A DNA stretch of 64,000 bases. It comes from Azolla caroliniana (lineage: Eukaryota; Plantae; Polypodiophyta). Shown piece by piece: positions 5,528 to 57,898 of the stretch; position 1 is the stretch's first letter, and the number at the start of each line of letters is the position of its first letter. The stretch spans positions 16,430,001 through 16,494,000 of the forward strand of contig JBHGNT010000002.1 in assembly GCA_043228905.1 (NCBI GenBank), in the 5' to 3' direction. A model generated the notes under the pieces. The model saw nothing but the letters and a program-made list of their open reading frames with translations, was not told the origin of the DNA and ran no database searches. A program made the position numbers and the translations under genes.

Positions 5528-8500
5528 AATAAAAAATAAAGTGATTATGATAAACATGCATTTGCTATATTGGAGGGGGTAGATCTTTCTCTCCACTCCA
5601 TTTATTTGGAAGTTGGAAGCTATATAGATTAATTTCTTTAAGTTTTTCCCTATTCAAATTCTCATGATCCCCTCGACCCCTTTCTAAATGGCTACGTTTC
5701 ACCGTTACAACCCTTGCTCTTTGTTTTCTTCTCACTTAAGTAAAATGTGCTTACTATGTAGGTGCTTCCAACAAGTGAACAAGATTTAGTTTGATTTACT
5801 TGGCATTTATTCAAATCCTTTGAGCTCCTCATTTTCATTGATAAAAACTTTGTATCTTCCAATATAATAGGTAAAACAAAATGTATAAATAGAACATCCA
5901 AGCCATAACCCATGTGGACAACTTGTATGTATTTGCTATATCATGTCATCGTGTACATAGCAAAAAGTGCAATGATTAATTGTACAATTGTGTGATTCAC
6001 CATCAACCCAAGGTTTGTGATGCTCATCTTTAATTTATTTTTTAAAATGAATGTAACGTTGCCATGTCTACCAATAATAACCTCAAAGTAACAAAATGAA
6101 CTTGAGTTGCTTGGATGTTTGTTTCCTAAGACATTTAAAGTTTTACAACATTTAGTTGATGGATGGTGCCATAGAATTACGATGGAAGTAACTTACAATT
6201 GTACTCAAATCTACAAGTCATTCTCCTATAGATTACATCTACCGAGCATTTATAAACTCTGTCTCAGACATGTATCCATCCATTTCAATGCAGGGACGAC
6301 CAAGTATAGAAAGGTGCAACAATCTTGTTGTCGATAACAAACCGTTGGTGGAAGAAAGGGGGGAGGGAGGGAGGGGGATAACCTATATGGATAAGACAAT
6401 AAGGACACCAACGACTAGTCGCCCTTTTACTATGGAGCTTTAAATGACAAAAGCTGTGAAAAATATGTATGTCTCATATTTTCTTTCTATTAGATCGAAT
6501 CACTTTCAAGATAAACAACAAGCTTACCATATATTTATGGGTGATGTTATGGAGCATTGCATCAAAAGTTGCAGTAGAAATATCAAAAATATATTCTGGA
6601 AATTCGTTCTAGACTTAACAATGCATTACTTGCTCAAGCACATTGTAAAAGCATGTCTTTATACAATACATAATATAAAAGAAACATGTGTTTATACAAA
6701 TGATTGTTGAATATATTCATGATGTTAGCCTTATTGAAATCATAAAAGTTCAAATATACAAACATGCTCAATAATGGTAACATTAAAGCGTGCATTCAAC
6801 AAGAGGGGTTTGATGTCACCATTATAAAAGCTCTTCATACATTTAGTTCGAAACCATGCACATTGCACAACATCCACTTTCTTCTAAAGTATAGATTTGC
6901 AACATTCAGAATTTCCACAACACAACGAGTGAAAAGGATACCATCATCCTTTCAAGTGTTAACAAACAAGTACTTGTTGATCGAGTGTACATACGAAAAC
7001 ATTTCATTTCATTTTGCAACATTTTCCCAAAGTTAACCACATTCTAAATATGTATTATGTCATACATACATACATATTATCTAGCTTGCAGTTGCAAGTT
7101 AAGACAATCACATATATCCTTTGCAACAATACATGTGATATAAAGTTTTACGCAAATTGGTGATCCGGACTCTATGATTCACAATGTGTTGTGAATATAA
7201 CTCTTCTAGGATTTCATAATATAGAATTATTTTGTAAAGAAACATTAAGGTTCTTATCGTTTAAATTTTCTTTTGCTTTCCTCTTATGTATCACTAGGCT
7301 CTTCCACAAAAAGAAAAAATCCACTCACATTATTATAGAATCAACTCTAAAGATCATGGCTATACATTTGGTGACATGTGTTTAAAGAGCAATAATGTTA
7401 TCTATCATCATAAAAACCAACACAAAGGCTTAGATACTCAAGGTATGGCATTTGAAAGTCACACTATATTGCGACAATATATCTAGTCTAAGCAAATGGA
7501 CAAATTCCATATGATTCCATGTCCTCATGTATGAATGTCTTTAGGCCACTTTATAGTTTGCGGGATGTTTGTGAGTTCCCACCTTTCAAATTTTTTGGTA
7601 CACCAACTTTTTATTCGTATTCGCGTGGACCACATTTTGGTGACATATGGCAATGATGGTAAAGTTGGGATGTGTGGTGACCATTATGCATCCACCCTTT
7701 GTGTTAGCTAAAGAGAAGCATAACACATGAACCTTGAAACTTGTGATTTCCAAGATTAGCATGAGGCTAAAAGAGGTTATCTCTAAAAGGAATTGTTAAT
7801 GGTTCGTTGAGTCTTGTCTTGTCTCGACTCTTGATTGTTTTTAGATGTTTTTTTCCACTTATATATTTATGTAACAATGATAATGTTTGCCTTCTGATCT
7901 TCAAATTGCACCCATCTTTGTTCACATACCCACATTGACAATAATTTCTAAACTTGTGCTCGAGTTGCTTACGTGTGTACTTCCCATCCTCACAATCGAA
8001 AATGGGCTTCTGAAATGTTCCTCCTACTAGAAAGTGCAAGATGACAATCATATTGTCTCCCTTCTGTGGGTGTGAGAAAGACACTATACAATAAGATTAC
8101 ACTGTCGGAATTATGGAAATTATTTGTGCACTGAAAGGTACTCGAAATACATTTAAGGTGTTTATGAGGATGATGAGCCATTAAATCTTATTGTGCATCA
8201 TTAACTTGTTATGTAAAGTGAAGACTCGTAGAACCTTTCCTACCCTTATATAAGTTTAGCATGCTAAATCAAGGCCTTTATCTACTTTTATTCTCCCTTC
8301 TATTGATAAAATACAACACAAATATTCCTATCATGGATTGCGCAGTGGTGGGCCCAATCTAATGTTGTATAATAGTGTTTCACATTGTCTTCCTATTTTA
8401 TCTTGCCTTTATTGCAATCAATAATTGATAACCTTCTTCTACAAATATTATCACCACCCCGTTTGATGTGTGTTATCTAGCGACATCCACCTCACCCCAT

Positions 8501-9335
8501 ACATGGAAGGATGTTTGTGTGTGTTTTCGGGGGAGGTTGCTCCATGCTCGTTGAAGCTAACAATCTCACTTGCTTTCGTTAGGCATGCCTCATAACTATG
8601 AGAGGTTGCACCTAACCTACAGAAGCTCCATGATGCGACCATTAAGTGCTAGAATAAGCTACAAAATATAGCTAATTAAATTTGAAAACATGTTCTAAAA
8701 TGCTAGTGTTGTACTCTTCAACTAACCCTCTCTTCCTTCAAGTTGAGGCCCATTGGGTAGCTAGAGGCATGGACGACACATTCAATATGCTCAACTCTTC
8801 GTTCGTGTGCTAGGTTTAAGATGCATGCAATACAACAAGGCTAACTATAGACTATCAACCATATGGTTGTGAACTAGAGTTTAGAGAGGGTAACTATATA
8901 TATTTGAAATTATAAGATGAAATCAAATGCGGGGAACAATCCATTAAGTTGCTTCACGTATGCAAATATGATGAGTGTGTGTTCTCAAGTATCTGATGCA
9001 TTTGGTATAGGGCATGTTGAGTATGAGATAATAACCTCATCATCTAAACTTACTCTTGGTGTGTGCATGTGCATGTGTTTATGTTTGATGTGACATACCA
9101 ATTAGAGTTGATTATGCTATCTAAAAAGAGTAGAATAGAAGAGGTTGCGAGCACGGATCTAGATCGAGATTGAATAGCATTCAAAGTGCTGATATGTCAA
9201 CTAGAGGAGGTACGTATGTGATGAGGAGTTAGTTGAGGAGCGAGGAAGAGAGGCACCGGCGTAAAGAAAACAGCATATATAGTGATGGCTTTTCTTCATT
9301 CCGAAGGTGTGACTAAATATAGTGGCATGGCAGTC

Positions 9336-19410: not shown

Positions 19411-20445
19411 TGTTGAAGATAATAAGCGGAAGAATATGTGAGGACCTGCAAAGTGATGCCAAGCAAACAACATGTACAAGACAGAGAACTAGAATGTGCA
19501 CAATATGCAAGAAAGTAAGAAGCAAGAGAACTCAGTTGAAGCTCTAATGGAAACTTGTTGTTATTCTCTTCTGTAACTCTCTCTGTATAATTTTAGAACC
19601 TTCGAGTTGGGCTTTTATACTCAAGCCCTAACTAGGAACGAGTTCACACTAAGGATATAAAAGATGGGTGCAGTAGGCCTTTTATGCCAACAAACTCTCT
19701 TGTAAAAGGGCTACTCTATGTATGTATACATTCTATTTGGGTTATCTCCCCTGTGACCCTAGATTACAAGTCTAATCTATAGTTACAAATGTATACATAC
19801 AAGTCTATTGGCATTCAACCGAATTAGCAGAGGTATAGTCTGAATCTAGCCTAATTCGGCTAGTCATTCGGATCGTATGTTATCCGGGTTGGTCGGATTG
19901 GTTGGTTCTTTCGGATTGGCTCATGTTCAATTCTGAATCTCGGCTTCTAGTTGATCGTTTGCCCCTCATATGCGTTTGCTCTTGTGCTCCTTGTTGGATC
20001 CTGTATCTGTCTTCGGGTTCGTTCGCCCCTCAATTGTCTCCTCTCCAGACAATATTCTCTCTTAGTGCTACATCTTCAGCCTCTTGGCATTCTGATTGGT
20101 TCATTTGTTCGGGCCAATCTTCGATTTTCCTTTTGCTATTGTTCGTTGGGCTTCTTTTTGCTCGGTTGCTTGTCGTAGTCCCATCATGTTCCTCAGTGTT
20201 GTGAATCGTTGATCTGAGAGTGGCTTCGTTAGGCAATCAGAGATGTTCACCTCGGTGTCACTCTTCCGGACTTCGAGCTTCTTCTCCATTACGAGCTCCA
20301 TGATATGATGAAACCGTACCTCAATATGTTTCATCTTCACATGATAGACTGGGTTTCGAATGAGGTGTATTGTGCTCCGTCGCAATAGATGGTCGTGTTG
20401 GCATAAAAGACCGACTCCTTCCACCTTGTATCTTAGTGTGAACAC
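19411..20445 (-). mobile_element. Second copia family remnant (RNase H end plus LTR)
   Basis: ORF 20101..20445 contains NPVYH..MKHIEVRFHHI...DCLTKPL. An LTR-like region ends ...cttcaaca at 19411. Confidence 0.7.
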
Positions 20446-20988
20446 ATCTAAATAGTTAGGGCTTAGTATATAAGCTCTAACCTAACACTAACAATAATCA
20501 TCCAATCTTGTATCTAGAGTATCTGAGAGTGTAAGACTAATAGAATAATGAGAGCTTCCATTAGAGCTTGAACTGTGTCTACATTTCCATCATTATCTTC
20601 TATCATACTCTTTGTGTTGTTTGCTGTGCACATAACCTACAGGTCCCCACATACTTCCGTGTACATATCGGACTCCGTATCCTTCAACTGGTATCAGCGC
20701 GGCTTACTGTTCAGCGGCAACAAAACAATAGAGAAAGCTGAAAGAAAAGACAAGGTTAGTAAAAATCTCATTCTCAAAGAGAACATGGCTTCAACATTTG
20801 GTACAGGAGTTGAAATCCGCAAGTTTGATGGAAAAACTTTGCCTTGTGGAAGGAGATGATGCAGGATGTGTTGATCATTAGAAGACAGGTTGAAGCCATT
20901 TGACACAGTGAAAAACCTGCTTCAATGACAACCGAAGAGTGGAGATCCATAGACAAAATCATGCTCCACCATCCGAATGCATCTGGAA
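20446..20988 (+). mobile_element. Copia partial 5' LTR, PBS (iMet) and gag start
   Basis: tggtatcagcgc at 20689-20700, then MASTFGTGVEIRKFDGK...W; cut at 20988 by a TIR element. Confidence 0.75.
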
Positions 20989-21851
20989 CACGTTCGCCTT
21001 CAGAAGTGGAAGGATCGCGCATTCCACTTTTAGATTCCCTTTGTAGTCACACAATTTTAGCCTGTTGTGAAATCGAACGTGCACCAGTATCACATGATCA
21101 ACCAAAGATGGTGAATTTATTGATTTATTAATCCGATGCATCTCTATACCTAGAGAACATGCTATTTATTGGAGAAAATATAAATGTATGAGATTTATTT
21201 TTGCAATGTTTACAAATTTAGGGTTGGGGTTTACCGCGCATTCATTTGATACAAATTAATTATTTGAGGAAAGCATTAACAAACAAGGATTCCATTTTCG
21301 TGAGATGTAAAGTGCAGAGGTTTACAATGGTTAAACTTTCCAAGAGAGGTGTATATGCTATTTGAGAAATTGATATTTACATATTATTGAATACAATACA
21401 TCGTAATTAATCCTTAGTAAAGATAATTAGGATATAATACCAAATGTATATGTTCATGGCAACACATGAAAACTAGAAGTCGAAAGCGTACTCGTAACTA
21501 TTAGTTTACATGACATTAGACATAAAAGAATATACCCAAATCATATATGGCAATTATTAAGGCATAGGCAGTGCTAAATTTTTGGGTGCCAAAATAGAGA
21601 CAACACTCCCGTAGTAACGTTGAAGCATGTATTAAAATTTTCATTTGATTGTCTACACATAAACACTAAATCAAGAAGTTAAACACATATATACAAATGG
21701 AGTACTAATAATCTATATAGAACACACATTGATAGCCCTCCATACATCTAGTCCAAACAACCATCAACCATAGAAACATGATTGTTGTTGTATAATCCCC
21801 TCCAATAAAGCAAATACTCCCCAATATCTATAAACGCCTCCTTCAGTCCCA

Positions 21852-22709
21852 CTATAAGTTTTGGATGTGCAACTTATGTGGTTCTTTAATCTCCAAAGGA
21901 TGACGTCCTGTATTCTCGTCCAGAGGGGGGCGATGAATATGGGTTATCGGAAGGTTAATAACTTGCCCCTTCCGCACAAGCTTTCTATGGATGATGTCCC
22001 TTCTTATTTTATTTTGTTCCGATGACAACACACCAGACGCAAGCTCTGCTCCTGGTGTAGATCGAGCCTCATCATCTTCTATTGAACTCGATGACTCAGA
22101 ATTTGACATTCTTGTCACCTTCTTTTTTTGAGGCCCGGATTGCACAATAGATTTATTTATTGGTGCTTTAACAGGCGATAAAGAGGCTGCCTTCAGGCCT
22201 TGAATATATGGCCTCAATGTTGTTATCAGGTTGGTACTTGTCTCAATAGCATTCCGGAAGGATTCTGGCCCGCATGAATCCTTCAACAAGTAGTCTTCGG
22301 AGACGATCATCTTACGGACTCCTTTTGTACAGTTGACTAACACAATCAAATTAGTTGAGTCCGCATCTTCATAGTCAAGCCGCAAAATTTTGCCATAGCT
22401 AAATGGCTGATCTTGGGCAAGCATCCCACGTCTAGCCAGTCTGGAAACTAAGAGTACTACCTTCTTTTTTGAGTCGACATATTGCAATGCCCACTCGTGT
22501 CCAGTTAAGTCTTTGTCCAGTTGGTCTTCACCTCCTCTAGCCGTGACAAATGTCTTCTGACTAACTTCGTCAGACGGCTGCCTCATGACTTCATCCTCAA
22601 ACACGAGTTTCTTTCCCTTTTGCGGATACATGACAACAAGGATCTTTGTTGTCTCTGGAGGAGAGCTTTGATACTTAATCCAAATTCTTTTGGGTGGCAT
22701 CTCCTCCAT
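21852..22709 (-). CDS. Transposon-borne orphan protein (285-aa ORF, probably the truncated first coding exon of a longer gene)
   Basis: Long open frame with protein-like composition in AT-rich surroundings. An upstream acceptor (tttcatgtag) lies just before the ATG. The frame reads on in a protein-like way past the TAG (WGLKEAFIDIGEYLLYWRG). Confidence 0.6.
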   Translation of the reverse strand: MEEMPPKRIWIKYQSSPPETTKILVVMYPQKGKKLVFEDEVMRQPSDEVSQKTFVTARGGEDQLDKDLTGHEWALQYVDSKKKVVLLVSRLARRGMLAQDQPFSYGKILRLDYEDADSTNLIVLVNCTKGVRKMIVSEDYLLKDSCGPESFRNAIETSTNLITTLRPYIQGLKAASLSPVKAPINKSIVQSGPQKKKVTRMSNSESSSSIEDDEARSTPGAELASGVLSSEQNKIRRDIIHRKLVRKGQVINLPITHIHRPPLDENTGRHPLEIKEPHKLHIQNL

Positions 22710-23419
22710 AGGATCAGTCGATCTACATGAAATAATAGAACAGTGAACCTAAACCTACATTCTCTCAAATGATAATGTATTCTAAGATGGTAAGGTTTGG
22801 AAAATGAGAATTCAAAAAATAGTTTGGCCTCATTAAGCTCTTGCCTAACAACTTGTGTAAGGGACCTACTTAAAGGGTGTAGTAATAAGGTCAATAACCT
22901 AGTAAGAGGCACTGGAAAGGGAGTTCAGATAACAGAATAGTGAAACCTAAACCTATATCCTCGTAACTGGCAATGGTAGTAAGGTAGTAAGGTGGTATGG
23001 TAATGTTTTGGCCTCACTTCAGTCTTACAGTATGCACATTCCTAGTAAATGAAGGTGGTATGGTGTGCCAAATTAGCAATCCAGTAATGTTTTGGCCTCA
23101 TTTCAGTGTTACAATAAGCACATTCCTAGTAAGTGGTGTAAAGGACTTGTAGGATGGGTGAAAAAGGGTTGGAAACCAAGGAACTTGATTACAGGGCAAG
23201 ATAAATATATATCTAACGTCTCCGAGTTCTCTAAACCCTCAAATTACTAGAATTTTGACATCCCTATCAGTGTCCAGATCTTAGATTGTAGGTCAAATTC
23301 TACTGTATTTTGACCTTAATTTAGAATTTCTAAACATGTTTTTACTTCTTATTTTTAGCCTAATGTTTTCTTTTGTGTTTCTAATGGTGTAATGTACATT
23401 AATAGTGTGGTCTAACTAC

Positions 23420-24070
23420 CCAGTGGCTCTTTGACCCTCAACTTGATACAACATATCGAGTTGAGGTTGCGTATAGAGATAACGATAGAGAAGGAGCTAA
23501 ATAAGAAATTAGATGCCCAAGCATTAGAGCAAAAAAGAGCTAGCACCTGCTGATGATAGCAGAAACGAGGTGGCAAGGAAACTTGCAAGAATTGAAGGTG
23601 GGTATGTTAATTGGTACACCTGCTGATGATAATGAGCTGGGACATCAATTTTAGATTGGTAAGGTTTTAAATGTGGTGATGCATGAGAACCAAAGCCAAA
23701 TCCAGTCTATAAAGGTGCATTGGTACAACACTAGATGCAAAAATGCCTTATTGGCAAGTATGCATTAGAGATGATGGAATGTCCACGGTCAAGGGGGAAT
23801 AGAAAGAGGAAAAGAAATATTCGTAGCACTTCATGCCTAGACATTGGTGACGTAGATATTATTGTTTACGATTTCACACTAACAAAAGCTGGACGTCTCA
23901 GGAAGTCTACAATAGATATCATCAAGGAGAAATTACCTATTCTACAAGGGGTCTCAAGTTGAAGGCAAACAAGATCGTCAACACATAACATGGAATGTCA
24001 ACATCTAGTTTTAGATGAAGACAATGTCTTAATAGGTACATTTGAAGATGACGAGGAACAATCCGCATTG
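23420..24070 (+). pseudogene. Decayed C-terminal fragment of a probable DNA transposase or associated protein
   Basis: ELKVGMLIGTPADDNELGHQF*IGKV...IKVHWYN...DFTLTKAGRLRKSTIDII with stops and frameshifts. A homologous fragment at 33930-34050 lies inside the second copy. Transposase identity is inference. Confidence 0.5.
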
Positions 24071-24797
24071 TATATTAGTTATAGTAGTGACTCTGGATCA
24101 TGATACGGGTGATTTTTGTAAATGTTACACTCGTCAATGTAATTTTGGTATCTATTGTAAGAGAGTGCTGTTTGTAATACTCGAAAGATGTAAAAGTTAT
24201 GTTTAGAAATATTATTGCTTTGTATAAACATTGTTTGTTATAAAATACATTACTTCTTGACTTCTCAGTGATAGTGAACATTGTACCATTTGGATTATAG
24301 CTTAATTTTAGCGTTTTTTCAAGTTTAGGAAATGATGAAAATTTGAGGTTTTCCAACGGTATTTTGAGAACATGTGATACTGGTATCATTATGTTTTGTG
24401 AATAGAGTACCTAAACCAACACGTTCGCGTTCACAAGTGGAAGGATTGCGCATTCCACTTGTAGAATCTTCTTGAAAATATCCAAATATACCCTCCTGAC
24501 AAAAATTGGATGCACTAATATCATATGTTCCACAACTTGGTTAGAATTTGCAAATATAAAAATACATGATAGGTCTACGAGTGGAGATCATTAGAAATTC
24601 AAATAAGTTTGGATGTGTTGATAAGTTAATGTAGGCATAATAAAGTTCAACAATGGCTCAATATGTCACTAATGTGCGACATGGGAAACACTAAGTTAAA
24701 GACTTATATTAATTTGGTAAGTTTTACAAAAATATGAGGTGTACTTGTAACCATACTAATAAAATGAGTTATAATTTATACTTTGACCCATACTCGC

Positions 24798-25050
24798 ATG
24801 TATATAATTGTGGACAATGTAGGATAGTGCACTTTAGGATAATGTGATTGGAATAACTAACTTATTAAGATATTTAATACTTGTATTTAAAGTTGATCTA
24901 ATCTATTCCTCAGTTTGTTCATATGGGATCAAACCATATGTATATAATTGTGGACAATGTAAGACAGTGAACTTTAGGATAATGTGGTGGAAATAACAAA
25001 CCTATTAAGGCTTTCATACTTGTATTTAAAATTTATCTAATCTATTCCTT
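24798..25050. repeat. Degenerate tandem duplication, period about 140 bp
   Basis: tgtatataattgtggacaatgta...ttgtatttaaa...tctaatctattcct occurs twice. Confidence 0.8.
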
Positions 25051-25677
25051 AGGTGATTCACAAGGGATCAAACACCGAACGATAACGCTAGTGGAACTAC
25101 AAGCGTATAAAAACATGCGGATAATGCTGGTGGAACCATTATCAACACACCATAAGCATCGATTGCAGGTCGAAAAACGATCGTGGCTTCTCCCTTGTGC
25201 AAATAACCATCTGGATTGGTCCGTACCTCTGAGGTAGACCACTAAGTCACATCTGTACTATCTCGTCCTCATCCACCATCATGTTGATGGATCCTAGGGC
25301 ATCATAGATCTCCTTGATCTTGGCGATGTAGTCAGTCACCGTCATATCCCTTTTTCAGATATTGTTGAGCTCTTAACGGAGTTGCAACTTCCGGGCTGTG
25401 GTACTCGTGGCAAAAATCTTCTTCAGATTTTCCCAGAGCTCCTTGGCGTCTTTGCATCTTGTATGTAGCCCAACATCTAATTGTTCACATAGGACGCAAG
25501 ACAATAGAAAACTCTACTTGCCGCTTACTCCCACACTGGAAAGTCCTTGTGTGTCGATTCTGGTATTACTTCATTCGCACCTTCCACATAAATCCAATAT
25601 CCATGGCCGAGTAGATACTGGTGCATCTTGCTTTTTCGTTGGAAGCAAGCTACCCATTCCTTCATCCATTTTTCGTT

Positions 25678-26054: not shown

Positions 26055-26759
26055 TGTCGTGCCCTTCAGCTCCGGATCGTTGCGTGAGTCGGGTGGGAAC
26101 CGCCGAGGTTTTGGACTAGGAGGAAGAGGAATACAACTTAAGGCTAGTTATGAATAATAGGAAGAGAAGTAAGATAGTAATCTCGTGAATCCCACGAGTT
26201 TAGTGTAATTAAAACAATATTTAGATTATAAGAGTAATTTAGATGGCAAAATTCATGAATCCCACGAATATATTAGATTGATCAATCCTTGTATATTAAT
26301 CAACAACCATATACATATTTCTCTCCTCCTTATATAAAGATGGAAGAGGCTAAGCATGGCTTCATGCTTTTTCACCTAAAGTGTCCATGCACACTAAATG
26401 TGCATGTGATGCTTTGTTATTTCCTAAATATAGGGCCCATGCACGCTAGATGTGCATGAGTCACTTTTAATGTCACGTGTAAATAAAATATTCATACTCT
26501 AAAGAATACATGATTTTTACCTTTTAATAAAGGTATGTGTAAATAAAGGTCTTATACGTATTAAATCTACATTTATAACACTAAAGATAAGTTATTACAA
26601 TGGTAAAGTTAGGGTTTATTTACGTGGAGGTGCATGGTTCGAATCCTGCCCTATGCACGTGATGAATTCTTTTGATATATTATTTATTTATTTATATGTA
26701 TCTAAAATCGGATATATTATTTTATGGTTTTCACGTAGTGTGTGGAATACACTACGACA
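26055..26759 (-). repeat. 3' LTR of the gypsy element
   Basis: Direct repeat of 32430..33134, preceded on minus by the PPT. Confidence 0.97.
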
Positions 26760-29700
26760 TTCGCCCCCTCCGAACCTGCACATCCTCCGGTATGTGCCGA
26801 AGTTCTCGATCCCCCATATCCGTCTTCACCCAAAGCTTCCTCCGATTCTCCCCTTATGTCGACTATGAGTTGTAATTCACTTTCTTCGCTTCCCGCATCA
26901 CCGTGGTCTTCGTCCGATTGCTCCTCGTTGTCGGCCTTGGCTTGGATCACATAGGGTTTGTCGTCGGTCTGCTTCTTGAAAATCTTCACCCGCTTCCCGG
27001 CTATAGGCACTCGTAGTATTGTTCCATCCAACTCGGACAGTCGGTACGTTCCGTTGTCGAAGACTTTCCGAACCTCGTATGGCCCGAACCACCTTTTCGC
27101 GAATTTCCGCATCGTTGTATGTTGATGGTCCAAACTACTGTCATAGACGATCACCCAATCTCCTTCTTCAATCCTCCTCGGTCGTAGTCGGTGCTTTGTG
27201 TCGAACCGCCTTTTGTTCCTTAATCGTGCTTCTTGTTGTCGGCGTATTGCTTCCGCTATGTCTGCCGGTCTTCCCTCTAGTTGTCGTATCCGGACCGCTA
27301 GTAGTTCTTCCCGGCTCATCTCTTCCTTCCACGGTAGCATTGTCCATGTTGCGATCGCGGTTTCCGTCGGCATTACCGGTGCTTGTCCGGTCATGAGTTC
27401 TGCCGGCATGTAACCGGTTATGGAACTATGCGTCGTCCGATCCGCCCATAGTGCATACGGAAGCATCTGCGGCCAGTCCTTCACCTTTCCATCGCATGCC
27501 TTCGCAAGTGCTTTCACGATCGGACTATGTCCTCGTTCGATTTTCCCGTTGGCCTCCGGATTGTATGCCGTTGTCAGCGATAACCGAACTCCGTGTTTAG
27601 CGAAGAATCCCCTAGCTTTGTCCGAGTCGAGTTCTCCCCGGTCCGCAATCACTTGTCCTACGCACCTGTACCTGCAAAATACTTCCTCCAAAAGAAATTG
27701 GCATACCGCGGAACACGTTTTCCTCTGAAGCGCTCGACCTTCTACTTGGTTCGTGAGATCTTGCCGAGCTAATACCAAGTATTTCTTTTTCCCGATCCCG
27801 GTCGGCATGGCCACTATGTCAACCATCCACTTGAAGTTGATTGTCGGTGAGAATGTCGGATGTAACTCATCTCGATGTCGAACCCTGGAGTAGACTTGAC
27901 ATTTCTCGCAGCTTTCTGTGAACTCCGCGACATCTTTGTACATTTTCTTCCACCAATATTTTTGCTTGATCTTCACAAATGTTGCCCATGTTCCTCGGTG
28001 TCCAGCCCAATCGGATTCGTGAAACTCGGACATTATCCGGTTTCGTTGCTCTTTTGTCCCGACTACTCGAAGTGGTATACCATCCGGTCTTTTCGGCGCC
28101 CTCCATATTAATCCGTTTTCCAAGAAGAACTTTTGGACTTGTCTCTTCTTCCTTCGGATCTCAGCTCTTCTTCCTTTATCGTTTGTTGAATCCTCGGCCT
28201 CTTGTAATATCTTCCCGATCATCAAGCTTTCTCCCTCGTATTCTTGTTCCCGGAATTCCCGGATTACGTTTACTCGGCATATGTGCTCCGACGCGAAGTA
28301 GTCTTCGGAAACTTCTTCATTATCCGATTCGGTTATGTCGTCTCCGAACCGAGCCCTTGATAACATATCCGCTACCGCGTTGTCCTTCCCCGAGATGTGT
28401 CGAACCTCCGGATTAAGCGACTTGACATATGCAACCCACCTTAGCATAGCTACATCCGGTATCGTACAACACCGCATCATCCCGAGTATCAGAAGACAAT
28501 CCGTCTCGATCACCACTTCGGCTCCGATCAAATAATCCCGATCCGATTTTATCGCCGACACGACTCCCCACAGTTCTCTTTTGACTTGCGCATATCCACG
28601 TTGCCTTTCATTGAGAACCTTTGCTCCGAATCGGATCGGGTACCGCGAACCATCCGAGTCGGCTTGATTGATGACCCACCCGATACCGGTTGGACTTGTA
28701 TCAACCGTTACTATGATCGGTCGGTCATAGCTCGGCTTCTTAAGTGCTTCCGCCCTCCGAAGCGTCTTCTTCAATTTCTTCATGGCTTTGGTGTGTTCTG
28801 GTTTCCATTCGAATTTCTTACCTTTCCGCAACAAGTGGTAGAGCGGATCCGCTATATGTGCATAGTGCGGAATCCATATGTGATAGAATGCACATGCACC
28901 GAGAAACCTTCGGACTTCGGATGTTGACTCGCATACTTCCTCCATAGCTTGAATCGCATCGATCTTTGTTGGTGACGGTCTTCGGCCGTAGGGCCCACAT
29001 AGATGTCCGACCACCAATATTTCTTCTTGCCCAAATGCCGATTTCTCCCCGGAAAGTGTTAGGTGCACATCTTCTAGGTTTCGCAACACTTTCTCGCAAT
29101 CCTGAATATGGTCGACCACGAACTTCCGGCATCCCCGATCATCCATAGTCTCATCTTTTTCTTCTACCGCGCATCCTTTCATCGGAATGTCATCGAGGAA
29201 CGGCATCGTTATCTCCGGAATGCAGTCTCGAAGCACCTTGTTCATCGCGTTCATCATATGAGCAACTGAGTTTGTCGCTCCTTGTGGTAGTGTGCACATT
29301 CGGACTAATCCTATCGGTGTTCGCATGGTTGTGATGTCTCGGCTCTCCACGGCTAGTTGGAATTGGTCATACCCCGAGTATAGGTCTCCGATGGAGTATA
29401 TCGCACGACCGGCAAAAGCTTCCGCAAATTCGTCCACTATCGGACCGACTCCCGAGTTCCGGATCGTGACTTTATTCACCGGTTGCAAGTCTTGGATAAA
29501 TCGGAGTGACCCATTCTTCTTCGGAACCGTAAACCATCGATTTGAGTACGGAGCAGTTGATGGCTCTAGAATCCCCATCGCCACCTTCTCCTTGAGCAAG
29601 TCAATGACTTTCGGAATATGCGCTCGTGGCACTGGAATCGGCTTCAGGTTCCACGGTACATGGTCAATCGTGAAGATCACCATCGGCTCCACTATTCTCG

Positions 29701-30049
29701 GATCGACGCACCCTATCTCCCTTGAAGTAAATGCAAATGCTTTGCCGTATTGCTCCAACATCTCGTGAAACCGTTCTTCTTCTTTTTGTAAGAGGAACCC
29801 ACCTCCACCGATCCGAAGTTTCTTCCGGGTCTCATCCGTGAAGGCATGTCCGATATCCACGGACTTCCGAAGTGTTTGATCTCCCGAGACTTCTTTCCTC
29901 TTTTGTTCGCTATCGGAGGGTAGTGGTCCCGCGGCCGGTTTCACCTTCTTCTCCACGGTCTTGTATTTCGTACTTACCATTGCTTCTTCTTTGCGGAGCG
30001 TATCCGGCTCCATTTTCTCAATGATCTCGTACATCTCGACCGATTCCAC
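26717..30049 (-). CDS. pol: Gypsy Pol (RT - RNase H - integrase), 1110-aa ORF
   Basis: LPQG and FLDD RT motifs, DTS..GIG and ETD RNase H motifs, H-X5-H...C-X2-C zinc finger, D..ADRG..ANGKIER integrase core and WFGPY; no chromodomain. Confidence 0.95.
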   Translation of the reverse strand: MESVEMYEIIEKMEPDTLRKEEAMVSTKYKTVEKKVKPAAGPLPSDSEQKRKEVSGDQTLRKSVDIGHAFTDETRKKLRIGGGGFLLQKEEERFHEMLEQYGKAFAFTSREIGCVDPRIVEPMVIFTIDHVPWNLKPIPVPRAHIPKVIDLLKEKVAMGILEPSTAPYSNRWFTVPKKNGSLRFIQDLQPVNKVTIRNSGVGPIVDEFAEAFAGRAIYSIGDLYSGYDQFQLAVESRDITTMRTPIGLVRMCTLPQGATNSVAHMMNAMNKVLRDCIPEITMPFLDDIPMKGCAVEEKDETMDDRGCRKFVVDHIQDCEKVLRNLEDVHLTLSGEKSAFGQEEILVVGHLCGPYGRRPSPTKIDAIQAMEEVCESTSEVRRFLGACAFYHIWIPHYAHIADPLYHLLRKGKKFEWKPEHTKAMKKLKKTLRRAEALKKPSYDRPIIVTVDTSPTGIGWVINQADSDGSRYPIRFGAKVLNERQRGYAQVKRELWGVVSAIKSDRDYLIGAEVVIETDCLLILGMMRCCTIPDVAMLRWVAYVKSLNPEVRHISGKDNAVADMLSRARFGDDITESDNEEVSEDYFASEHICRVNVIREFREQEYEGESLMIGKILQEAEDSTNDKGRRAEIRRKKRQVQKFFLENGLIWRAPKRPDGIPLRVVGTKEQRNRIMSEFHESDWAGHRGTWATFVKIKQKYWWKKMYKDVAEFTESCEKCQVYSRVRHRDELHPTFSPTINFKWMVDIVAMPTGIGKKKYLVLARQDLTNQVEGRALQRKTCSAVCQFLLEEVFCRYRCVGQVIADRGELDSDKARGFFAKHGVRLSLTTAYNPEANGKIERGHSPIVKALAKACDGKVKDWPQMLPYALWADRTTHSSITGYMPAELMTGQAPVMPTETAIATWTMLPWKEEMSREELLAVRIRQLEGRPADIAEAIRRQQEARLRNKRRFDTKHRLRPRRIEEGDWVIVYDSSLDHQHTTMRKFAKRWFGPYEVRKVFDNGTYRLSELDGTILRVPIAGKRVKIFKKQTDDKPYVIQAKADNEEQSDEDHGDAGSEESELQLIVDIRGESEEALGEDGYGGSRTSAHTGGCAGSEGANVVVYSTHYVKTIK

Positions 30050-30348
30050 CGGGACTACCCGGTTTCCTTAGCTTTTATCTTCCGCAAGCTCTTCAAGTCG
30101 TTGTAGCGTGCTCCCATAGAACACTTCTTCGACTATCCCCACGATTTCTTCATCTTCTTTTATTATTGATGCCGACCGCAACTTATCCTCCACTTGTCGG
30201 TATCCTTTCTTCAATCCTCCGGTTACGGTCGTGTACGTAGATGCCCCATCCAGACCGATTCGTACATGTTTTGCTCCGAGAGTTTTCTTTCTGTGTGGGG
30301 TATCAGGGCTTCTCGGACTATCACTTCCCCACTCCGCAACAGTCCGCT

Positions 30349-32412
30349 TTAAAAATCCATTCTCACTTGGGACAAGAGTTCCCTCTTGTTCCTTTCGTGA
30401 TTTGCCGGCACCGTTAGGAATTGGACGGATTTCCCACCGTTTTGGCTCCGAATTCGCGCAAAAGCCGCATTGCTATCGAGCACCTTCGTCTCCATCCGTG
30501 ATGCCGTGATAAAGGGTTGGACGAGGATGACGGAATGTGAAACCTCATCTTGCACGAAGAAATTTTGGTCGATCTCGACATCCCCGATCTTCACCGTCAC
30601 ATCCGGACAAGCCGCAAATAGATCTTCCGTTGCTTTGGTGGCCGCCCGAATCTTCCATCCATGGTTGGTGTTAATAGGCCACTTTCCCTTCCGGTAGAAC
30701 TCCTTGGACATCAAGTTGATCTCCGATCCGTGATCAATCAATGCTAGCACGGGTTCTTTGATGTTGCCGATTCGGACCGGAGTCTCCGTAGTCGCGCGTG
30801 CCCAATGTGGCCTTGTATAGTGGGAGTTCGGAATTTCGTCCTCCACTTCGGTGTCGTTCATTAAAACGGTGTTCGCATTCACCCTTGGAGCATTTTCCTC
30901 TGTACTTTGTCTTTTTCGCTTCACGAGATCCACGAGAAGATCGTGGAACTCCTTCTTTGCTATTCCGAGTAGCTCCCGAAGCGAGAAATCTACTCGGCTA
31001 TCCAAGATTCTTTCCTCGAACACTCTTTTCAAGTCGGTTTGTTGTTCTATGTCCGAGGCGAGCTTGAATGCCGGAGTCGCCTTTTCTTTTCCCTTACCTC
31101 CGGAGTTCCAGCTTTCCGGTATCTTTGATGGCCCGGCTGCATCCTCCGTGCGTCGTCGTTTCTCGTCCACATACACCTTATGCAATTGACCTAGGGCGTA
31201 TACGCTATTCTTGTCGACAAGGCACTCCCATCCCGTAGCTTCCCGGACGCCTTCCGCGGTGCTTCGGAACTCGTTAGAGTCGGTTTTCTCGGTGTTTTCT
31301 AGAACTTCCGGCCAAAAAGACGTCTTTGCTCTCGATGACTCCCCGACACATATTCCCGCGGTTGTCGCATAGTTGCTTCTTGCTGCCAATTCCTCCTCGA
31401 GCACCTTCTTCATGCCGCCTTTCCGGAAGTTCGGTCGGAGTGGCTTCCGAGAGTCCATCGAATGAATCCGGTTTCCCTCGTAGTAGATGAGATCCCACCG
31501 TAGCGCCTCCTTATGCTCGTCGCAATCCCTCCGATCGTGTTCGGCGCTATCGCACCATATGCACCGTCGGTCCGTATACTTGGAGCTTGTGGGGCGGTCA
31601 TCCGACTTCTTCACCATCGTGATCTTCAGATTCTCCATCTCCTTCAATAGTTGCTCCACCGTAGATGCATCAATCCCCTTATCGGTTGTAGTCTCTCGAG
31701 CCCTCAGTTGATGGTCTTCCAAACCGGTTCTCGGTTTCGGAATCGGTTCCAAAACCCTCTTTTCCTCGTCGGCAAGCCATTGCCCCCTCTTCGTGTATCG
31801 CGCGACGATATCCCGCACGCTTTCCCATGTTTCGGTGAGGCCCCTCTCTGTGGTCGTGTCCTCCAAGAGCACTCCGAGATCTTTCCGGTCCCGGACGTCC
31901 ACGGCTCGCAAGAACATGATCACCTTGTCCGGTACGAGGATAGCTTGATCTCTCGCGGACAACCTCCCGAACCGGCTTTCGAATGCCGAAAACACATCAA
32001 CGACCTTCAATCCCTTGTCCGGCGTCTCCACCCAATCTTCAAATCCCCTTCGCGTCGCCTTGGACGAATCCTCGATGGCGAACGTCCTCTTTAGCTCTAC
32101 TTCAAACGCCTCCCATCTCGGATTTTGTTGTCGTAGCCCATGGATGCTTGCTTGAAGCCCGTCGGTCGCCACCCGGTTGAAGGACGTCACTTGCAGTCCT
32201 TCCGATATTCCGCACCGTAGCATCTCCGCCTTGTAGTCCTGAAGATACCGCGACACGTCTTTCCCGTTGAATTGCCCGTTTCGTTGCACGAGCCGCTCCA
32301 CTGATGCCGCTATCTCCGACATCGCACGTTGTTCTTGTAGCATGCGCTCGAACATCATCATCATGTTGCTAGCCTCCGGTTGATTTTCCATCTCCTTGCC
32401 ACCCGTTTTCAC
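30349..32412 (-). CDS. gag: Gypsy Gag-protease, 687-aa ORF
   Basis: CIWCDSAEHDRRDC zinc knuckle and LIDHGSE aspartic protease motif. The true start is probably the downstream ATG, because the GTG lies within the PBS. Confidence 0.93.
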   Translation of the reverse strand: MKTGGKEMENQPEASNMMMMFERMLQEQRAMSEIAASVERLVQRNGQFNGKDVSRYLQDYKAEMLRCGISEGLQVTSFNRVATDGLQASIHGLRQQNPRWEAFEVELKRTFAIEDSSKATRRGFEDWVETPDKGLKVVDVFSAFESRFGRLSARDQAILVPDKVIMFLRAVDVRDRKDLGVLLEDTTTERGLTETWESVRDIVARYTKRGQWLADEEKRVLEPIPKPRTGLEDHQLRARETTTDKGIDASTVEQLLKEMENLKITMVKKSDDRPTSSKYTDRRCIWCDSAEHDRRDCDEHKEALRWDLIYYEGNRIHSMDSRKPLRPNFRKGGMKKVLEEELAARSNYATTAGICVGESSRAKTSFWPEVLENTEKTDSNEFRSTAEGVREATGWECLVDKNSVYALGQLHKVYVDEKRRRTEDAAGPSKIPESWNSGGKGKEKATPAFKLASDIEQQTDLKRVFEERILDSRVDFSLRELLGIAKKEFHDLLVDLVKRKRQSTEENAPRVNANTVLMNDTEVEDEIPNSHYTRPHWARATTETPVRIGNIKEPVLALIDHGSEINLMSKEFYRKGKWPINTNHGWKIRAATKATEDLFAACPDVTVKIGDVEIDQNFFVQDEVSHSVILVQPFITASRMETKVLDSNAAFARIRSQNGGKSVQFLTVPANHERNKRELLSQVRMDF

Positions 32413-32425
32413 GTCGGGTTCACCA
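32408..32425 (-). other. Primer binding site complementary to tRNA-Trp(CCA)
   Basis: TGGTGAACCCGACGTGAA is the complement of the plant tRNA-Trp 3' end ...TTCACGTCGGGTTCA-CCA (tRNA sequence recalled from memory); 4 nt from the LTR. Confidence 0.85.
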
Positions 32426-32429
32426 ACTG

Positions 32430-33134
32430 TGTCGCGCCCTTCGGCTCCAGATCGTTGCGTGAGTCGGGTGGGAACCGCCGAGGTTTTGGACTAGGAGGAA
32501 GAGGAATACAACTTAAGGCTAGTTATGAATAATAGGAAGAGAAGTAAGATAGTAATCTCGTGAATCCCACGAGTTTAGTGTAATTAAAACAATATTTAGA
32601 TTATAAGAGTAATTTAGATGGCAAAATTCATGAATCCCACGAATATATTAGATTGATCAATCCTTGTATATTAATCAACAACCATATACATATTTCTCTC
32701 CTCCTTATATAAAGATGGAAGAGGCTAAGCATGGCTTCATGCTTTTTCACCTAAAGTGTCCATGCACACTAAATGTGCATGTGATGCTTTGTCATTTCCT
32801 AAATATAGGGCCCATGCACGCTAGATGTGCATGAGTCACTTTTAATGTCACGTGTAAATAAAATATTCATACTCTAAAGAATACATGATTTTTACCTTTT
32901 AATAAAGGTATGTGTAAATAAAGGTCTTATACGTATTAAATCTACATTTATAACACTAAAGATAAGTTATTACAATGGTAAAGTTAGGGTTTGTCTACGT
33001 GGAGGTGCATGGTTCGAATCCTGCCCTATGCACGTGATGAGTTCTTTTGATATATTATTTATTTATTTATATGTATCTAAAATCGGATATATTATTTTAT
33101 GGTTTTCACGTAGTGTGTGGAATACACTACGACA
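32430..33134 (-). repeat. 5' LTR of the gypsy element
   Basis: Direct repeat of 26055..26759, adjacent to the PBS. Confidence 0.97.
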
Positions 33135-34085
33135 GCGGTCAGCCACAACAGAAGAGTCCTTGTGTGTCGATTCTGGTACTACTTCATTCGCTCCCTCCAC
33201 ATAAATCCAATATCCATGGCCGAGTAGATACTGGTGCATCTTGTATGCCCAAGATGTGTAGTTGCTCCTATCGAGCTTTTTCGTTCGAAGCAACCTACCC
33301 ATTCCTCTGTCCATTATCTCCTTGTATGTTCTTACTGAGGTTTAAGTTTTGTCTGTGTTACAACACTTGTTGGCAGCAAAGGATTCTCAACCCTCGCGCT
33401 CTGATATACCATGAAAAGATTACCGTGGGGAAACTGAAACATACACACCCGACTTAGCCGGAAAACAACAAAAAACATAGAGAATCAAAAATGGAGATAA
33501 AACATAGCACAAGCGAGAGACAGAGAGAGCAGAAGACTAAGAACTCAATTCAAAATAAAATGTTCTCTGTACATACAAATGTGCTCAGAGAGCACTTTTA
33601 TATAAGTCCTTAGAGGACGGTCAGAAGTATTAACAGGTACTTCAATGCTCATAACTGAGCTATTAACACTAACTCCTAAGAATATAACTTCCAACTAAAC
33701 TAGAAGTGTAGTTCTCTAACGGCCTACAGGCGCTATGTGGATCTGGGCCTAGTCTATCGGTCTTCATCCGATTCAGCACATGTTCAGCTTGCTTCTCAAC
33801 ACTATACAATATTATTGTGGTTCTCAATCACCACTTCAAGCACTTAATGTTGATCTTCATAGTTTGGTCCATCCACAATAGAGTAACATTTATGTGGAAC
33901 CAAGAATGACAATACAAGCACAACTCAGGTGACAAGGAAAATTGCAAGAACTTAAGGTGGGGATATTAATAGTTATACATATAGTTGGCTATGACCTAGG
34001 GCACAAATTCTAGATTGGAAACGTTTTGGATGTGGTGATACATTAAAACTTTGTAATACATTTATCGTTGACATTAGTCAGACGT

Positions 34086-36998: not shown

Positions 36999-37798
36999 AC
37001 GCGATCACAATGATGTAAATAACTCTTGAATGTGTATTTTGTGCAACGATATGTGATAGATTTAGACAACATTTTATCAAATGATATAAAAAAATTCATT
37101 ATTTTGAAATCTTTGCTTCTGATTTCTTTAATATGTAAAAACTTATTAGTTGTCATTTTTCCTTAAAAATACGCAAAGTTACTTTTCGTATTTTATCAAA
37201 TTTTGGCATTTTTCAGTTTTACCAAATGGTGAGATTTTCAACTTTTTCATTAAGTTTTCTAGAACATGTTATTATGGTATAAGGTGTTTTATGAAATAGC
37301 AAAAAAAACCCCAAAATCAGATAGAATATTCCTTATCCTTCCACTTGTGAACACGAGCGTGTTCTTATAGCCATGTAATGAATTGTAATTTATATGTCAA
37401 TTTCGTTTTTCATGAAAATCATTGTAATTAAAGTTTTTTTCTTTGTAAAGTAAGTCTGATTCCATTCATTGTCTAATGCAATTGGTTTATGTAAAGTTCT
37501 AATTATTTATTCATGCGCGAGCATGTTATTAATATCAAATGTATTACATATTGAACGTATTATCTTTTTGAAAGAGGAAACATTATGTTGGGATGTTAAT
37601 AAGTGTACATTGTAATATAAGTTTCATGCTCTTACATAATGTTTTAATCAAATGTTCAATTGATCTAGTTAGTAAGTTTCTTTCTTTTCTTTGGAACTAA
37701 CACAAGTTAATGAATATTGAATGAACGATTTTTTGAACTGAATATTAAGCTTGTTTTTGAAAATTTGACTATCAACAGTCATTGTAGCAAATGTTATA

Positions 37799-53979: not shown

Positions 53980-55486
53980 GACACTTTATATATTACATAT
54001 TACACACATATATTATTATACACACAATTATATACAAATGCAAATATACAAACCAAACACGAAAAAAAAAGTACATATTTTATATATACGCATACATACA
54101 CATATACACACATTCCATACATACAATACAATACAATATATACATACACACACGAACATAACATGCATCACACATGCATATATACCTACATTCATATATC
54201 ACACGTCACACATGCGTATATACCTCTACATTCAAACATTACATCCATGAATATGTATATACATACATTACACCCATTTATACATGCATACTGACTAAAC
54301 ATAAATATATGTACAAATATATATTACCATATGAAAATATGTACATACAGATACATACATGCATTACATACTGCATACATATTAGAATCACGTTGCAACC
54401 ATATATATTGACATACATATATACATGTAACATAATACATACAATAAAATTAGATATGACATACATACATATACAAATGCATATATACATACAAAACACA
54501 GGAAAATAAATTACATATTATATATATACACATACACATACATATTAATACCTAAGACTACATATTATATCAATATGTATACAAATCTTCATACTTACAA
54601 ACAAGTTACATATATATACACGTGCACACACACAAATAAATTAGATATTACATAGCATATAATCCATACCTATTACACAATATACAAATTTACACATACA
54701 TCATTTACATATATATATATATATTACATATGTAAATACATATTCCACATATCACCATATATATAGATTATACTGGACCATACAAACCACAATACTTACA
54801 TACACACACACATTAGGTATATGTATACTTACACATACATTGGATATATACATGCATATTACGTACATATTACAAACATACATCCATATACAAACCATAT
54901 ACATACTAAACATGAAAATATCCCAAAAATATACATACATAAATACATTACATATATACGCACACATACATTCATACATTTACATACATATGACCACATA
55001 CACACATACATATACATACATTGGATATATACATACATATTACAAACACATTCATACTCATTGAATCATGTATATTGACAGATACATATATGCATACACA
55101 TACATATTCCACATATCACCATATATATACATACATATGCCTACAATGTTATAAGTTTTACAAGCATACATCCATACACATATATACATACATACATGCA
55201 TACACATAAATACGTTACATACACATACATATGTACGTTACATATGTACATACATATCATCACAAACTACAATACATACATATATACATAAATATTACAA
55301 ACAAACATCCACACACTCATGTATGCATATATGCATATACCATACACTATACACATACATACATTACATATGTACATTCATGCATGTACATACATACATT
55401 GCATATGCATATATTACAATCACACATTCATATACACTGAGTCATGTACATTGACATATGGATATATGCATACAGCTACACACATA

Positions 55487-55528
<42 letters not shown>

Positions 55529-56919: not shown

Positions 56920-57000
<81 letters not shown>

Positions 57001-57373: not shown

Positions 57374-57406
<33 letters not shown>

Positions 57407-57623: not shown

Positions 57624-57662
<39 letters not shown>

Positions 57663-57850: not shown

Positions 57851-57898
<48 letters not shown>

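What the first reader, a model, noticed from the sequence alone, without database searches (positions are those of the whole stretch)
20989..24419. Unclassified CACG-ended TIR transposon carrying a divergent orphan gene
Seen: a TIR element with a decayed + strand gene (IGKV..VHWY...FTLTKAGRLRKST) and an oppositely oriented 285-aa ORF with a 5'UTR acceptor. I cannot assign the ORF to gag, pol or a canonical CACTA TnpA/TnpD. Its C-terminal VINLPITHIHRPP...LEIKEPHKLHIQNL looks to me like the start of a ParB/Srx-like fold cut off by an internal deletion, which is unverified pattern recognition. CAC termini recall the CMC (CACTA/Mirage/Chapaev) group. Inference: a two-gene DNA transposon whose accessory gene may be a DNA-binding, anti-silencing or DNA-modifying cargo.
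Basis: partly seen in the sequence, partly recalled or inferred. Interest (0 to 1): 0.7.

Follow-up and report, generated by a model that had tools for sequence, protein, structure and literature searches.

The report
Broken Sola transposon, ParB-methylase gene relic
This is a broken, internally deleted copy of a multi-copy plant cut-and-paste transposon whose full-length relatives carry a second gene for a bacterial-type DNA methyltransferase fused to a predicted ParB fold, which likely binds palindromes in its own first intron and would mark the element's own DNA, a design already reported from a brown alga.

Summary
The feature is real but misfiled. It is a dead deletion derivative of a Sola1-like TIR transposon (AACACG ends, 35-bp TIR, 4-bp target duplication), not CACTA/CMC. 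This copy lacks its right TIR: the CACG at 24420 starts a second, younger sister element. The + strand relic is two scraps of a DDD transposase. Full-length copies continue into a beta-class N6/N4 DNA methyltransferase (PF01555; DIPY in 26 of 26). All domains are under purifying selection (dN/dS 0.03-0.12). A 17-bp palindrome array sits in the gene's first intron across diverged families. A young sister family has both genes open in 9 of 37 complete copies. Most likely the protein docks on its own palindromes and methylates adenine there to resist host silencing; this is untested. The ParB-methyltransferase Sola1 design is in print for Ectocarpus (PMC12477816), and this scan noted it before, in this genome and others. 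Verdict: new land-plant member of a known, mechanistically untested kind.

The parts
20983..20986 (.). CTGG: expected left copy of the 4-bp target-site duplication, inside a copia gag reading frame
   Evidence: sequence; family TSD length; the matching right copy was not found in the window plus 40 kb
20987..21021 (+). Left terminal inverted repeat, 35 bp, AACACG start, followed by a short hairpin to 21029
21022..21855 (-). 3' non-coding end of the cargo gene and subterminal region
   Evidence: 20987-21733 is 86% identical to the intact element in L054
21852..21860 (.). Deletion junction 1: about 2.7 kb lost (most of ParB fold, helical region, all methyltransferase exons); the ORF's stop codon comes from the far side of the junction
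   Evidence: anchor distance 2644-2689 bp in 6 of 6 full copies versus 4 in the window; same junction in 10 of 12 loci L001-L012, window included
21852..22722 (-). Remnant of cargo exon 2: 285-aa ORF from a derived ATG (22709); predicted beta-rich domain, Ser/Glu/Lys linker, first ~55 residues of the predicted ParB/Srx fold
   Evidence: 83% identical to P0001 residues 1-263; model of P0001
22723..23466 (-). Remnant of cargo intron 1, with acceptor AG at 22724-22723
23440..23462 (.). Single degenerate copy of the family palindrome (core TCGATRC-N3-GYATCGA at 23443-23459); full-length copies hold 17-31
23484..23547 (+). Transposase scrap 1 (around residue 355, just before the first catalytic Asp); the deletion before it removed cargo exon 1, both promoters and the transposase start
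   Evidence: 75% to L054 element 6515-6594; residue numbering
23558..24103 (+). Transposase scrap 2: C-terminal domain (residues about 737-909), two internal stops and one frameshift; the DDD core is deleted
24104..24417 (+). Right subterminal region, cut 72 bp short of the family's right end; right TIR absent
24418..25097 (+). Left end of a second element of the young sister family, inserted at or replacing the right end; truncated at 25097
   Evidence: 90% to L143 element 1-678

Best explanation
The stretch is a dead, three-times-deleted copy of a Sola1-like cut-and-paste transposon whose intact form carries, head to head with its transposase, a gene for a beta-class DNA amino-methyltransferase fused to a predicted ParB/Srx fold, and that protein likely binds a palindrome array in its own first intron and would methylate the element's own DNA to resist host silencing. 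Shown: element anatomy (8.6-9.4 kb, 35-bp TIR, 4-bp TSD), the two genes, the deletions, methyltransferase motifs, purifying selection, the conserved array, and heavy CG/CHG decay of old copies (a sign of host 5mC). Predicted: the ParB fold (AlphaFold plus structure search) and splicing into one protein of about 950 aa. Inferred: the ParB-plus-helical part recognises TCGATRC-N3-GYATCGA as ParB recognises parS, which places the methyltransferase next to the shared promoter region of both genes; the mark is more likely N6-methyladenine than N4-methylcytosine; the effect is to keep the element transcribed. The window copy encodes none of this; its sub-lineage was moved in trans. Odds: identity of the element 0.95; binding of the array 0.7; active methylation with an anti-silencing effect 0.5.
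For: TSD 4 bp in 9 of 10 old-family and 32 of 35 sister-family copies with both ends. Transposase: DUF7869 E 2.7e-49; motifs DGMDQ, LDN, GHTHDHID in 8/9, 9/9, 9/9 non-redundant copies, matching by eye the Sola1 profile consensus. ParB: Foldseek best hits all ParB/Noc (7bnr E 4.4e-5; 9 matches at E<=0.001); VIA-align PadC Z 8.9, rmsd 2.9, 99 aligned. Methyltransferase: PF01555 37.1 and 37.3 bits, cut-off 26.7; DIPY 26/26, QKP 23/24, DLFSG 23/24; model of the Ginkgo homologue matches CcrM E 3.4e-14, then M.BceJIV, MboII, RsrI (all N6A), PvuII (N4C) 8.7e-10. Fusion: phase-compatible introns; the Ceratopteris annotation P0016 splices the same exons; 6 of 25 long homologues hold PF01555 in the same chain. 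Linkage: 14 of the 16 loci (of 80) with a transposase hit have it head to head with the cargo gene. Selection: median dN/dS 0.035 ParB, 0.027-0.049 MTase, 0.051 transposase core; within the sister family, ParB variants shared by 4 or more copies are 0 replacement to 15 silent, against 29 to 18 for private ones (p 1.2e-5). Palindrome: 33 of 38 loci with 500 bp or more upstream; 165 sites in 46.6 kb upstream versus 5 in 126 kb downstream and 0 in shuffles. CG 12% and CHG 10% transitions versus 0.6% at A/T in the old cargo genes.
Against: No binding, activity, transcript or base-modification data. Motif IV is DIPY, not the textbook DPPY/NPPY/SPPY (consensus recalled). The ParB nucleotide motif reads GGSHS (33 of 36) where ParB has GxxR (recalled), so CTP clamping is doubtful. 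The AlphaFold models are middling (mean pLDDT 62.5 and 63.9; pTM 0.45, 0.49), and the MTase model is of the Ginkgo homologue (DIPH), not of this family. Palindrome CpGs in dead copies are barely protected: 44/516 versus 211/1790 elsewhere (p 0.04, sites not independent, search biased to intact sites). 5 of 38 loci lack the palindrome at 1 mismatch. The shared-versus-private test is not significant for the MTase exons alone (p 0.1-1, few variants). dN/dS rests on few unsaturated pairs (1-23 per domain). In a different family, retrotransposon DAMs gave no 6mA in E. coli (10.64898/2026.05.21.726589, passage).
Confidence: 0.6

Rival explanations
1. The cargo protein is a DNA-binding transposition cofactor or self-regulator (as TnpA of CACTA, MURB, or the Myb-like protein of Harbinger); it binds the array, and its methyltransferase fold serves binding or scaffolding without catalysis.
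For: Non-canonical DIPY and GSHS motifs; homologues vary at motif IV (DFPY, DLPY, DIPH); little CpG protection at the palindromes; the array lies in the gene's own first intron, which suits autoregulation.
Against: Both the catalytic Asp..PY and the SAM-binding DLFSG(T)GT motifs are nearly invariant and the domain has dN/dS 0.03-0.05; a dead fold would be expected to lose the SAM site.
Confidence: 0.25
2. The enzyme is active but writes N4-methylcytosine, or marks elements for target-site or copy-number control (self/non-self tagging) rather than for anti-silencing.
For: PF01555 covers both chemistries; PvuII and the rotifer N4CMT score within four orders of magnitude of the best N6A hits; the palindrome holds CG sites; a land plant uses a bacterial-type 4mC enzyme (Marchantia, 10.1101/2021.02.12.428880, passages).
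Against: N4C enzymes of Marchantia carry TSPPY; this family has Asp; the top eleven structural ranks are N6A enzymes.
Confidence: 0.12
3. CMC (CACTA/Mirage/Chapaev) element carrying TnpA/TnpD or a captured host gene fragment.
For: CACG is present two bases inside the end; Chapaev also makes 4-bp TSDs (recalled).
Against: Ends are AACAC; no CACTA Pfam hit among the 2 families listed for the transposase; motifs fit the Sola1 profile; the cargo is fixed across families with transposases 50-89% identical.
Confidence: 0.02

Closest known systems
Sola1-1_Ec32 of Ectocarpus (PMC12477816; passages and supplementary table rows read, figures not seen)
   Same: Sola-1 element, 4-bp TSD, AAC-start termini (AACCG), second gene on the strand opposite to the transposase encoding ParB-like plus N4/N6 methyltransferase domains (1104 aa); self-binding and self-modification proposed there.
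   Different: 21.5 kb with 282-bp imperfect TIR versus 8.6-9.4 kb with 35-bp TIR; brown alga versus land plant; the word 'palindrom' does not occur in its main text; sequences not compared here.
Sola1-1_PPa (Repbase, Physcomitrella; named as best blastp hit in the Ectocarpus table; Sola in Physcomitrella also stated in PMC10741241, passage)
   Same: Sola1 DDD transposase with 4-bp TSD in a non-flowering land plant; may be a near relative of this family.
   Different: Sequence not available here; whether its Repbase entry notes the second gene could not be checked (Bao et al. 2009 not held).
Plavaka accessory genes PAG2/PAG3 of Bostrychia (10.1101/2025.02.11.637652; passages read)
   Same: ParB-like accessory protein beside tandem arrays of inverted repeats, plus a PF01555 methylase gene; self-binding proposed; same best ParB structure (7BNR).
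   Different: EnSpm/Plavaka host; ParB is fused to a 2OG oxygenase and the methylase to SET, in separate genes.
VANDAL/VANC of Arabidopsis (mentioned in passages of PMC12973397 and the Bostrychia preprint)
   Same: Transposon-encoded protein that targets motifs in its own element to escape silencing.
   Different: MULE superfamily; unrelated protein without methyltransferase (recalled); experimentally shown, unlike this case.
Beta-class amino-methyltransferases CcrM, M.BceJIV, M.MboII, M.RsrI, M.PvuII; ParB/Noc/PadC/Srx fold
   Same: Motif order IV...X-I and fold; ParB/Srx fold.
   Different: DIPY instead of DPPY; GSHS instead of GxxR; eukaryotic introns; extra N-terminal beta domain (weak PH/SANTA-like matches, Z 5.5 or less, inconclusive).

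Membership tests
Sola superfamily (Sola1) | 4-bp target-site duplication | tested here: met
   9 of 10 and 32 of 35 copies with both ends; feature from PMC10741241 passage
Sola superfamily (Sola1) | Terminal inverted repeats, element 2-9 kb or more | tested here: met
   35-bp TIR, 8.6-9.4 kb; the window copy itself has only the left TIR
Sola superfamily (Sola1) | DDD transposase with Sola1 motifs | tested here: met
   D383, D464 and the GHTHDHID motif at 499 line up by eye with the Sola1 profile consensus D-lqk..l.lP, ilysDnc.gqNkns, kfl..gH (PMC5751038 supplement, parts 56, 59, 60 of 94 read)
Sola superfamily (Sola1) | Scored match or phylogenetic placement against Sola1 versus Sola2/Sola3 references | not tested
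   profiles were read, not run; only nodes 1-32 of Sola2 seen; Sola3 not read; Repbase not available
CMC (CACTA/Mirage/Chapaev) | CAC-type outermost termini | tested here: not met
   outermost bases are AACAC, TSD lies outside the AA
CMC (CACTA/Mirage/Chapaev) | TnpD-type transposase domain | tested here: inconclusive
   no CACTA family listed in Pfam scan at E<=1; DUF7869 is the hit
Beta-class N6A/N4C DNA methyltransferase (PF01555) | Catalytic motif IV N-terminal to SAM-binding motifs X-I | tested here: met
   DIPY exon precedes QKP..DLFSG-TGT exons; PF01555 above cut-off
Beta-class N6A/N4C DNA methyltransferase (PF01555) | Canonical (D/N/S)PP(Y/F) tetrapeptide (recalled) | tested here: inconclusive
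   DIPY in 26 of 26: Asp, second Pro and Tyr kept, first Pro replaced
Beta-class N6A/N4C DNA methyltransferase (PF01555) | Methyl transfer to DNA | not testable with these tools
   no assay or modification data
ParB/Srx superfamily | ParB/Srx fold | tested here: met
   Foldseek E 4.4e-5 prob 1.00; VIA Z 8.9, rmsd 2.9, 99 aligned; Atlas ParB_N cluster 0.92, family on 35% of members; no Pfam ParB hit
ParB CTPase clamps | GxxR nucleotide-binding motif (recalled) | tested here: not met
   GGSHS in 33 of 36; GGGHT/GGGHC/GGNHS/GGCNS in named homologues
ParB CTPase clamps | Binding to a palindromic parS-like site | not testable with these tools
   only co-occurrence with a conserved 17-bp palindrome array
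Sola1 elements with ParB-methyltransferase accessory gene (Sola1-1_Ec32 type) | ParB plus N4/N6 methyltransferase gene on the strand opposite to a Sola1 transposase, inside the TIRs | tested here: met
   intact in L054 and in 9 of 37 complete sister-family copies besides the reference copy; only relics in the window
Sola1 elements with ParB-methyltransferase accessory gene (Sola1-1_Ec32 type) | Sequence homology to the Ectocarpus protein | not tested
   sequence not retrieved

The most novel reading that the evidence does not exclude
Land plants host an old, still-spreading transposon lineage with a self-addressed epigenetic writer: a parS-like palindrome array recruits a ParB-fused bacterial-type enzyme that lays 6mA on the element's own promoter region and offsets host 5mC silencing. 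That would be a transposon-encoded source of real 6mA (or 4mC) in a land-plant genome and a programmable site-plus-writer module.
Probability: 0.35. Interest if true: 0.85.

Novelty: new member of a known kind. Interest (0 to 1): 0.5.

Why it matters
Transposons that bind and chemically modify their own DNA are nearly unknown; VANDAL is the one case the Bostrychia preprint names. The Ectocarpus and Bostrychia papers propose the ParB-plus-modifier idea but do not test it in the passages read. This genome offers a test bed: at least 134 young sister copies, some with both genes open, a defined 17-bp candidate site, and natural deletion controls such as the window copy. A positive result would also bear on the disputed existence and source of 6mA in multicellular eukaryotes. 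The window copy itself is only a relic.

Tried and rejected
Helitron/Helentron or Replitron reading of the direct repeat and hairpin (my first idea): rejected once full copies showed TIRs and 4-bp TSDs. Selection on the truncated 285-aa ORF: rejected; of 11 other sub-lineage copies 9 have stops, 1 a frameshift, 1 is open. Cis-acting asymmetry (cargo kept while transposase decays): first 5 copies hinted at it, but 37 complete copies gave 24 lesions in 2328 bp versus 36 in 2775 bp, p 0.44; 8 of 45 copies were left out as incomplete. CpG protection at palindromes: weak and inconclusive. Right end of the window copy: not found in window plus 40 kb nor by a junction pattern genome-wide (0 matches). 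RNA: no RNA holder listed, so no reads were laid. Longer-protein word search found none, later overturned by the profile search. Pfam gave no hit for the window ORF or + strand relic. Codon-model omega was not reported by IQ-TREE, so NG86 was used. Transposase C-terminal domain: no PDB match at E<=10; a BAH/Tudor-like look is recalled only. N-terminal beta domain: only Z<=5.5 PH/SANTA matches, not folded alone. PDB search with the MTase exon alone gave only unrelated weak hits. Alignment A4 used for the second model was patchy. Bao et al. 2009 not held; Iyer et al. 2011 not read; Iyer 2016 (PMC4738411, section 8 and passages) describes other ParB-linked clades, not this one. Eight literature searches (listings only unless cited) showed no paper on this gene pair in land plants; subscription journals, Repbase and bioRxiv supplements were not searchable. 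No complex prediction was run.
Full report
Observation. The 285-aa minus-strand ORF (21852-22709) and the decayed plus-strand gene (23558-24103) are present as described. The two CACG motifs at 20989 and 24420 are direct, not inverted, repeats. A search of the genome with the left end gave 40 matches of 40 scored from 764 candidates. Other copies run 72 bases past window 24417 and end in an inverted copy of the left end. Ten long copies have a 35-bp TIR that begins AACACG, with a 4-bp duplication outside it in 9 of 10. So the family is a TIR transposon, the left end is 20987, and this copy has lost its right TIR. The element sits in a copia gag frame; CTGG would be its duplication.

What the window copy lacks. 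Six copies carry about 2.7 kb more at the point where the ORF ends; 10 of the 12 best left-end loci, the window included, share the window's junction. Mapped on an intact 8.6-kb relative (L054), the window keeps bases 1-726, 3278-4175, two small intron pieces, 6515-6594 and 7706-8566. Three internal deletions therefore removed most of the second gene, the promoter region with the first exon and transposase start, and the catalytic core. The ORF's ATG is Lys in 6 of 6 full-length copies, and the short first exon is missing in all 5 copies of the window's sub-lineage. Of 11 other sub-lineage copies only 1 keeps this ORF open. It is a relic.

Transposase. One genomic copy has a 924-codon open frame that matches DUF7869 at E 2.7e-49. 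Its motifs DGMDQ, LDN and GHTHDHID are conserved in 8, 9 and 9 of 9 non-redundant relatives and line up by eye with the Sola1 profile in the supplement of PMC5751038 (parts 56, 59, 60 read). Sola elements have a DDD transposase and 4-bp TSDs and occur in Physcomitrella (PMC10741241, passage). No scored test against Sola2 or Sola3 was run.

Second gene. A word search found 38 homologues of the long exon, 41-87% identical. An AlphaFold model of P0001 (pLDDT 62.5) matches ParB and Noc in Foldseek (best E 4.4e-5) and PadC in VIA-align (Z 8.9, rmsd 2.9, 99 aligned). The nucleotide motif is GGSHS in 33 of 36, without the Arg of ParB's GxxR (recalled). Downstream exons match PF01555 above its cut-off, with DIPY in 26 of 26, QKP in 23 of 24 and DLFSG in 23 of 24, in beta-class order. 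Intron phases fit one protein of about 950 aa (read), and the Ceratopteris annotation P0016 splices the same exons. A profile search gave 613 proteins at E<=0.001; of 25 long ones scanned, 6 carry PF01555 in the same chain, among them records named Chara braunii, Ginkgo biloba and Riccia sorocarpa. A model of the Ginkgo protein matches CcrM (E 3.4e-14) and other N6A enzymes first, PvuII at 8.7e-10; PHROG methyltransferase families match as well.

Linkage and selection. Of 80 related loci, 16 have a transposase hit and 14 of those are head to head with the cargo gene, with transposases down to about 50% identity. Pairwise NG86 dN/dS on unsaturated pairs is 0.035 for ParB, 0.027-0.049 for the methyltransferase parts, 0.12 for the N-terminal domain and 0.051 for the transposase core; frames with stops, hits under 90% coverage and near-duplicates were dropped first, and 1-23 pairs remain per domain. 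In this genome, 134 of 150 scored matches to the motif IV exon belong by score to a young sister family; I fetched 46. They are 8.6-9.4 kb, with matching 4-bp TSDs in 32 of 35, and 9 of 37 complete copies besides the reference have both genes free of stops and frameshifts; median nearest-neighbour coding identity is 99.5%. Variants shared by 4 or more copies are 0 replacement to 15 silent in ParB and 1 to 10 in the helical part, against 29:18 and 32:19 for private variants; the methyltransferase exons have too few shared variants (0:3, 0:1) for significance. The element at window 24418-25097 is a left end of this family (90%).

Palindrome. Prompted by earlier notes of this scan, I looked between the genes. 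The first intron of the cargo gene holds an array of TCGATRC-N3-GYATCGA: 17-31 copies in six full old-family elements, 1 relic in the window, 51-52 bp spacing in the sister family, and at least one site in 33 of 38 related loci, 165 sites upstream against 5 downstream and 0 in shuffles. Old copies show CG 12% and CHG 10% transitions against 0.6% at A/T, the trace of plant 5mC silencing; palindrome CpGs decay at 8.5% against 11.8% elsewhere, which is no clear protection.

Mechanism. Shown: anatomy, gene content, deletions, selection, array. Predicted: ParB fold, single spliced protein. Inferred: the ParB and helical regions bind the array, which sits next to the promoter region of both genes, and the fused enzyme methylates there, most likely adenine (Asp in motif IV; N6A enzymes rank first), helping the element stay expressed. 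Whole-mechanism confidence 0.6 for the stated reading, with about 0.5 for catalysis with an anti-silencing effect. The main rival is a non-catalytic binding cofactor (0.25).

Known systems. PMC12477816 reports the same design in Ectocarpus: Sola1-1_Ec32, with a 1104-aa ParB plus N4/N6 methyltransferase gene opposite the transposase, AACCG termini, 4-bp TSD, best hit Sola1-1_PPa, and proposes self-modification. The Bostrychia preprint reports ParB accessory genes beside inverted-repeat arrays. Eight searches listed no paper on the land-plant version; Repbase, subscription journals and bioRxiv supplements were out of reach. This scan has noted the family repeatedly, in this genome and others; those notes are leads, not support.

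Verdict. Real; a dead copy of a new land-plant member of a known but untested kind. Interest 0.5: the design is in print, yet the young intact sister copies, the defined site and the selection data make the open question directly testable.

Noticed in passing
window 24418-25097: Left end of the young sister Sola family sits exactly where the right TIR of the described copy should be; its remainder was not found within 40 kb beyond the window.
   Followed up: yes
window 37210-37363: Right end of a third related family (AACAC-type TIR, followed by CTTA) with no partner end identified in the window.
   Followed up: partly
window 33861-33970: 110-bp fragment 76% like the sister family's transposase gene.
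   Followed up: no
window 20100-20986: Copia RNase H end on the minus strand, then an LTR-like stretch and a copia gag start on the plus strand that the element interrupts.
   Followed up: no
window about 26056-33135: Gypsy-type LTR retroelement with two near-identical LTRs, nested in a copia remnant (read).
   Followed up: no
G000:C2:16502813-16502925 (L149): Another left-end-like stretch of a related family on the minus strand, 76-78% identical.
   Followed up: no
L033-L052: Most old-family copies hold large nested LTR or LINE insertions, often near the palindrome array or in the transposase gene; right flanks of the C12 and C20 copies hold further Sola-like sequence.
   Followed up: no
L054:546-905, window 23558-23950: The transposase C-terminal domain is well conserved (36 of 120 columns invariant in 11 copies) and is the part the deletion copies keep; no PDB match.
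   Followed up: partly
L077-L098 versus L053-L076: Palindrome arm is mostly TCGATAC in families close to the window's and mostly TCGATGC in distant ones; L087, L088, L096, L129 lack it at one mismatch. Possible co-evolution with the binding domain, not tested.
   Followed up: partly
P0055, P0179: A Chara protein has two tandem ParB-methyltransferase units; another homologue carries a SAM (sterile alpha) domain.
   Followed up: no
window 54001-58000: Very AT-rich stretch with strong alternating GC skew, probably simple or telomere-like repeats.
   Followed up: no
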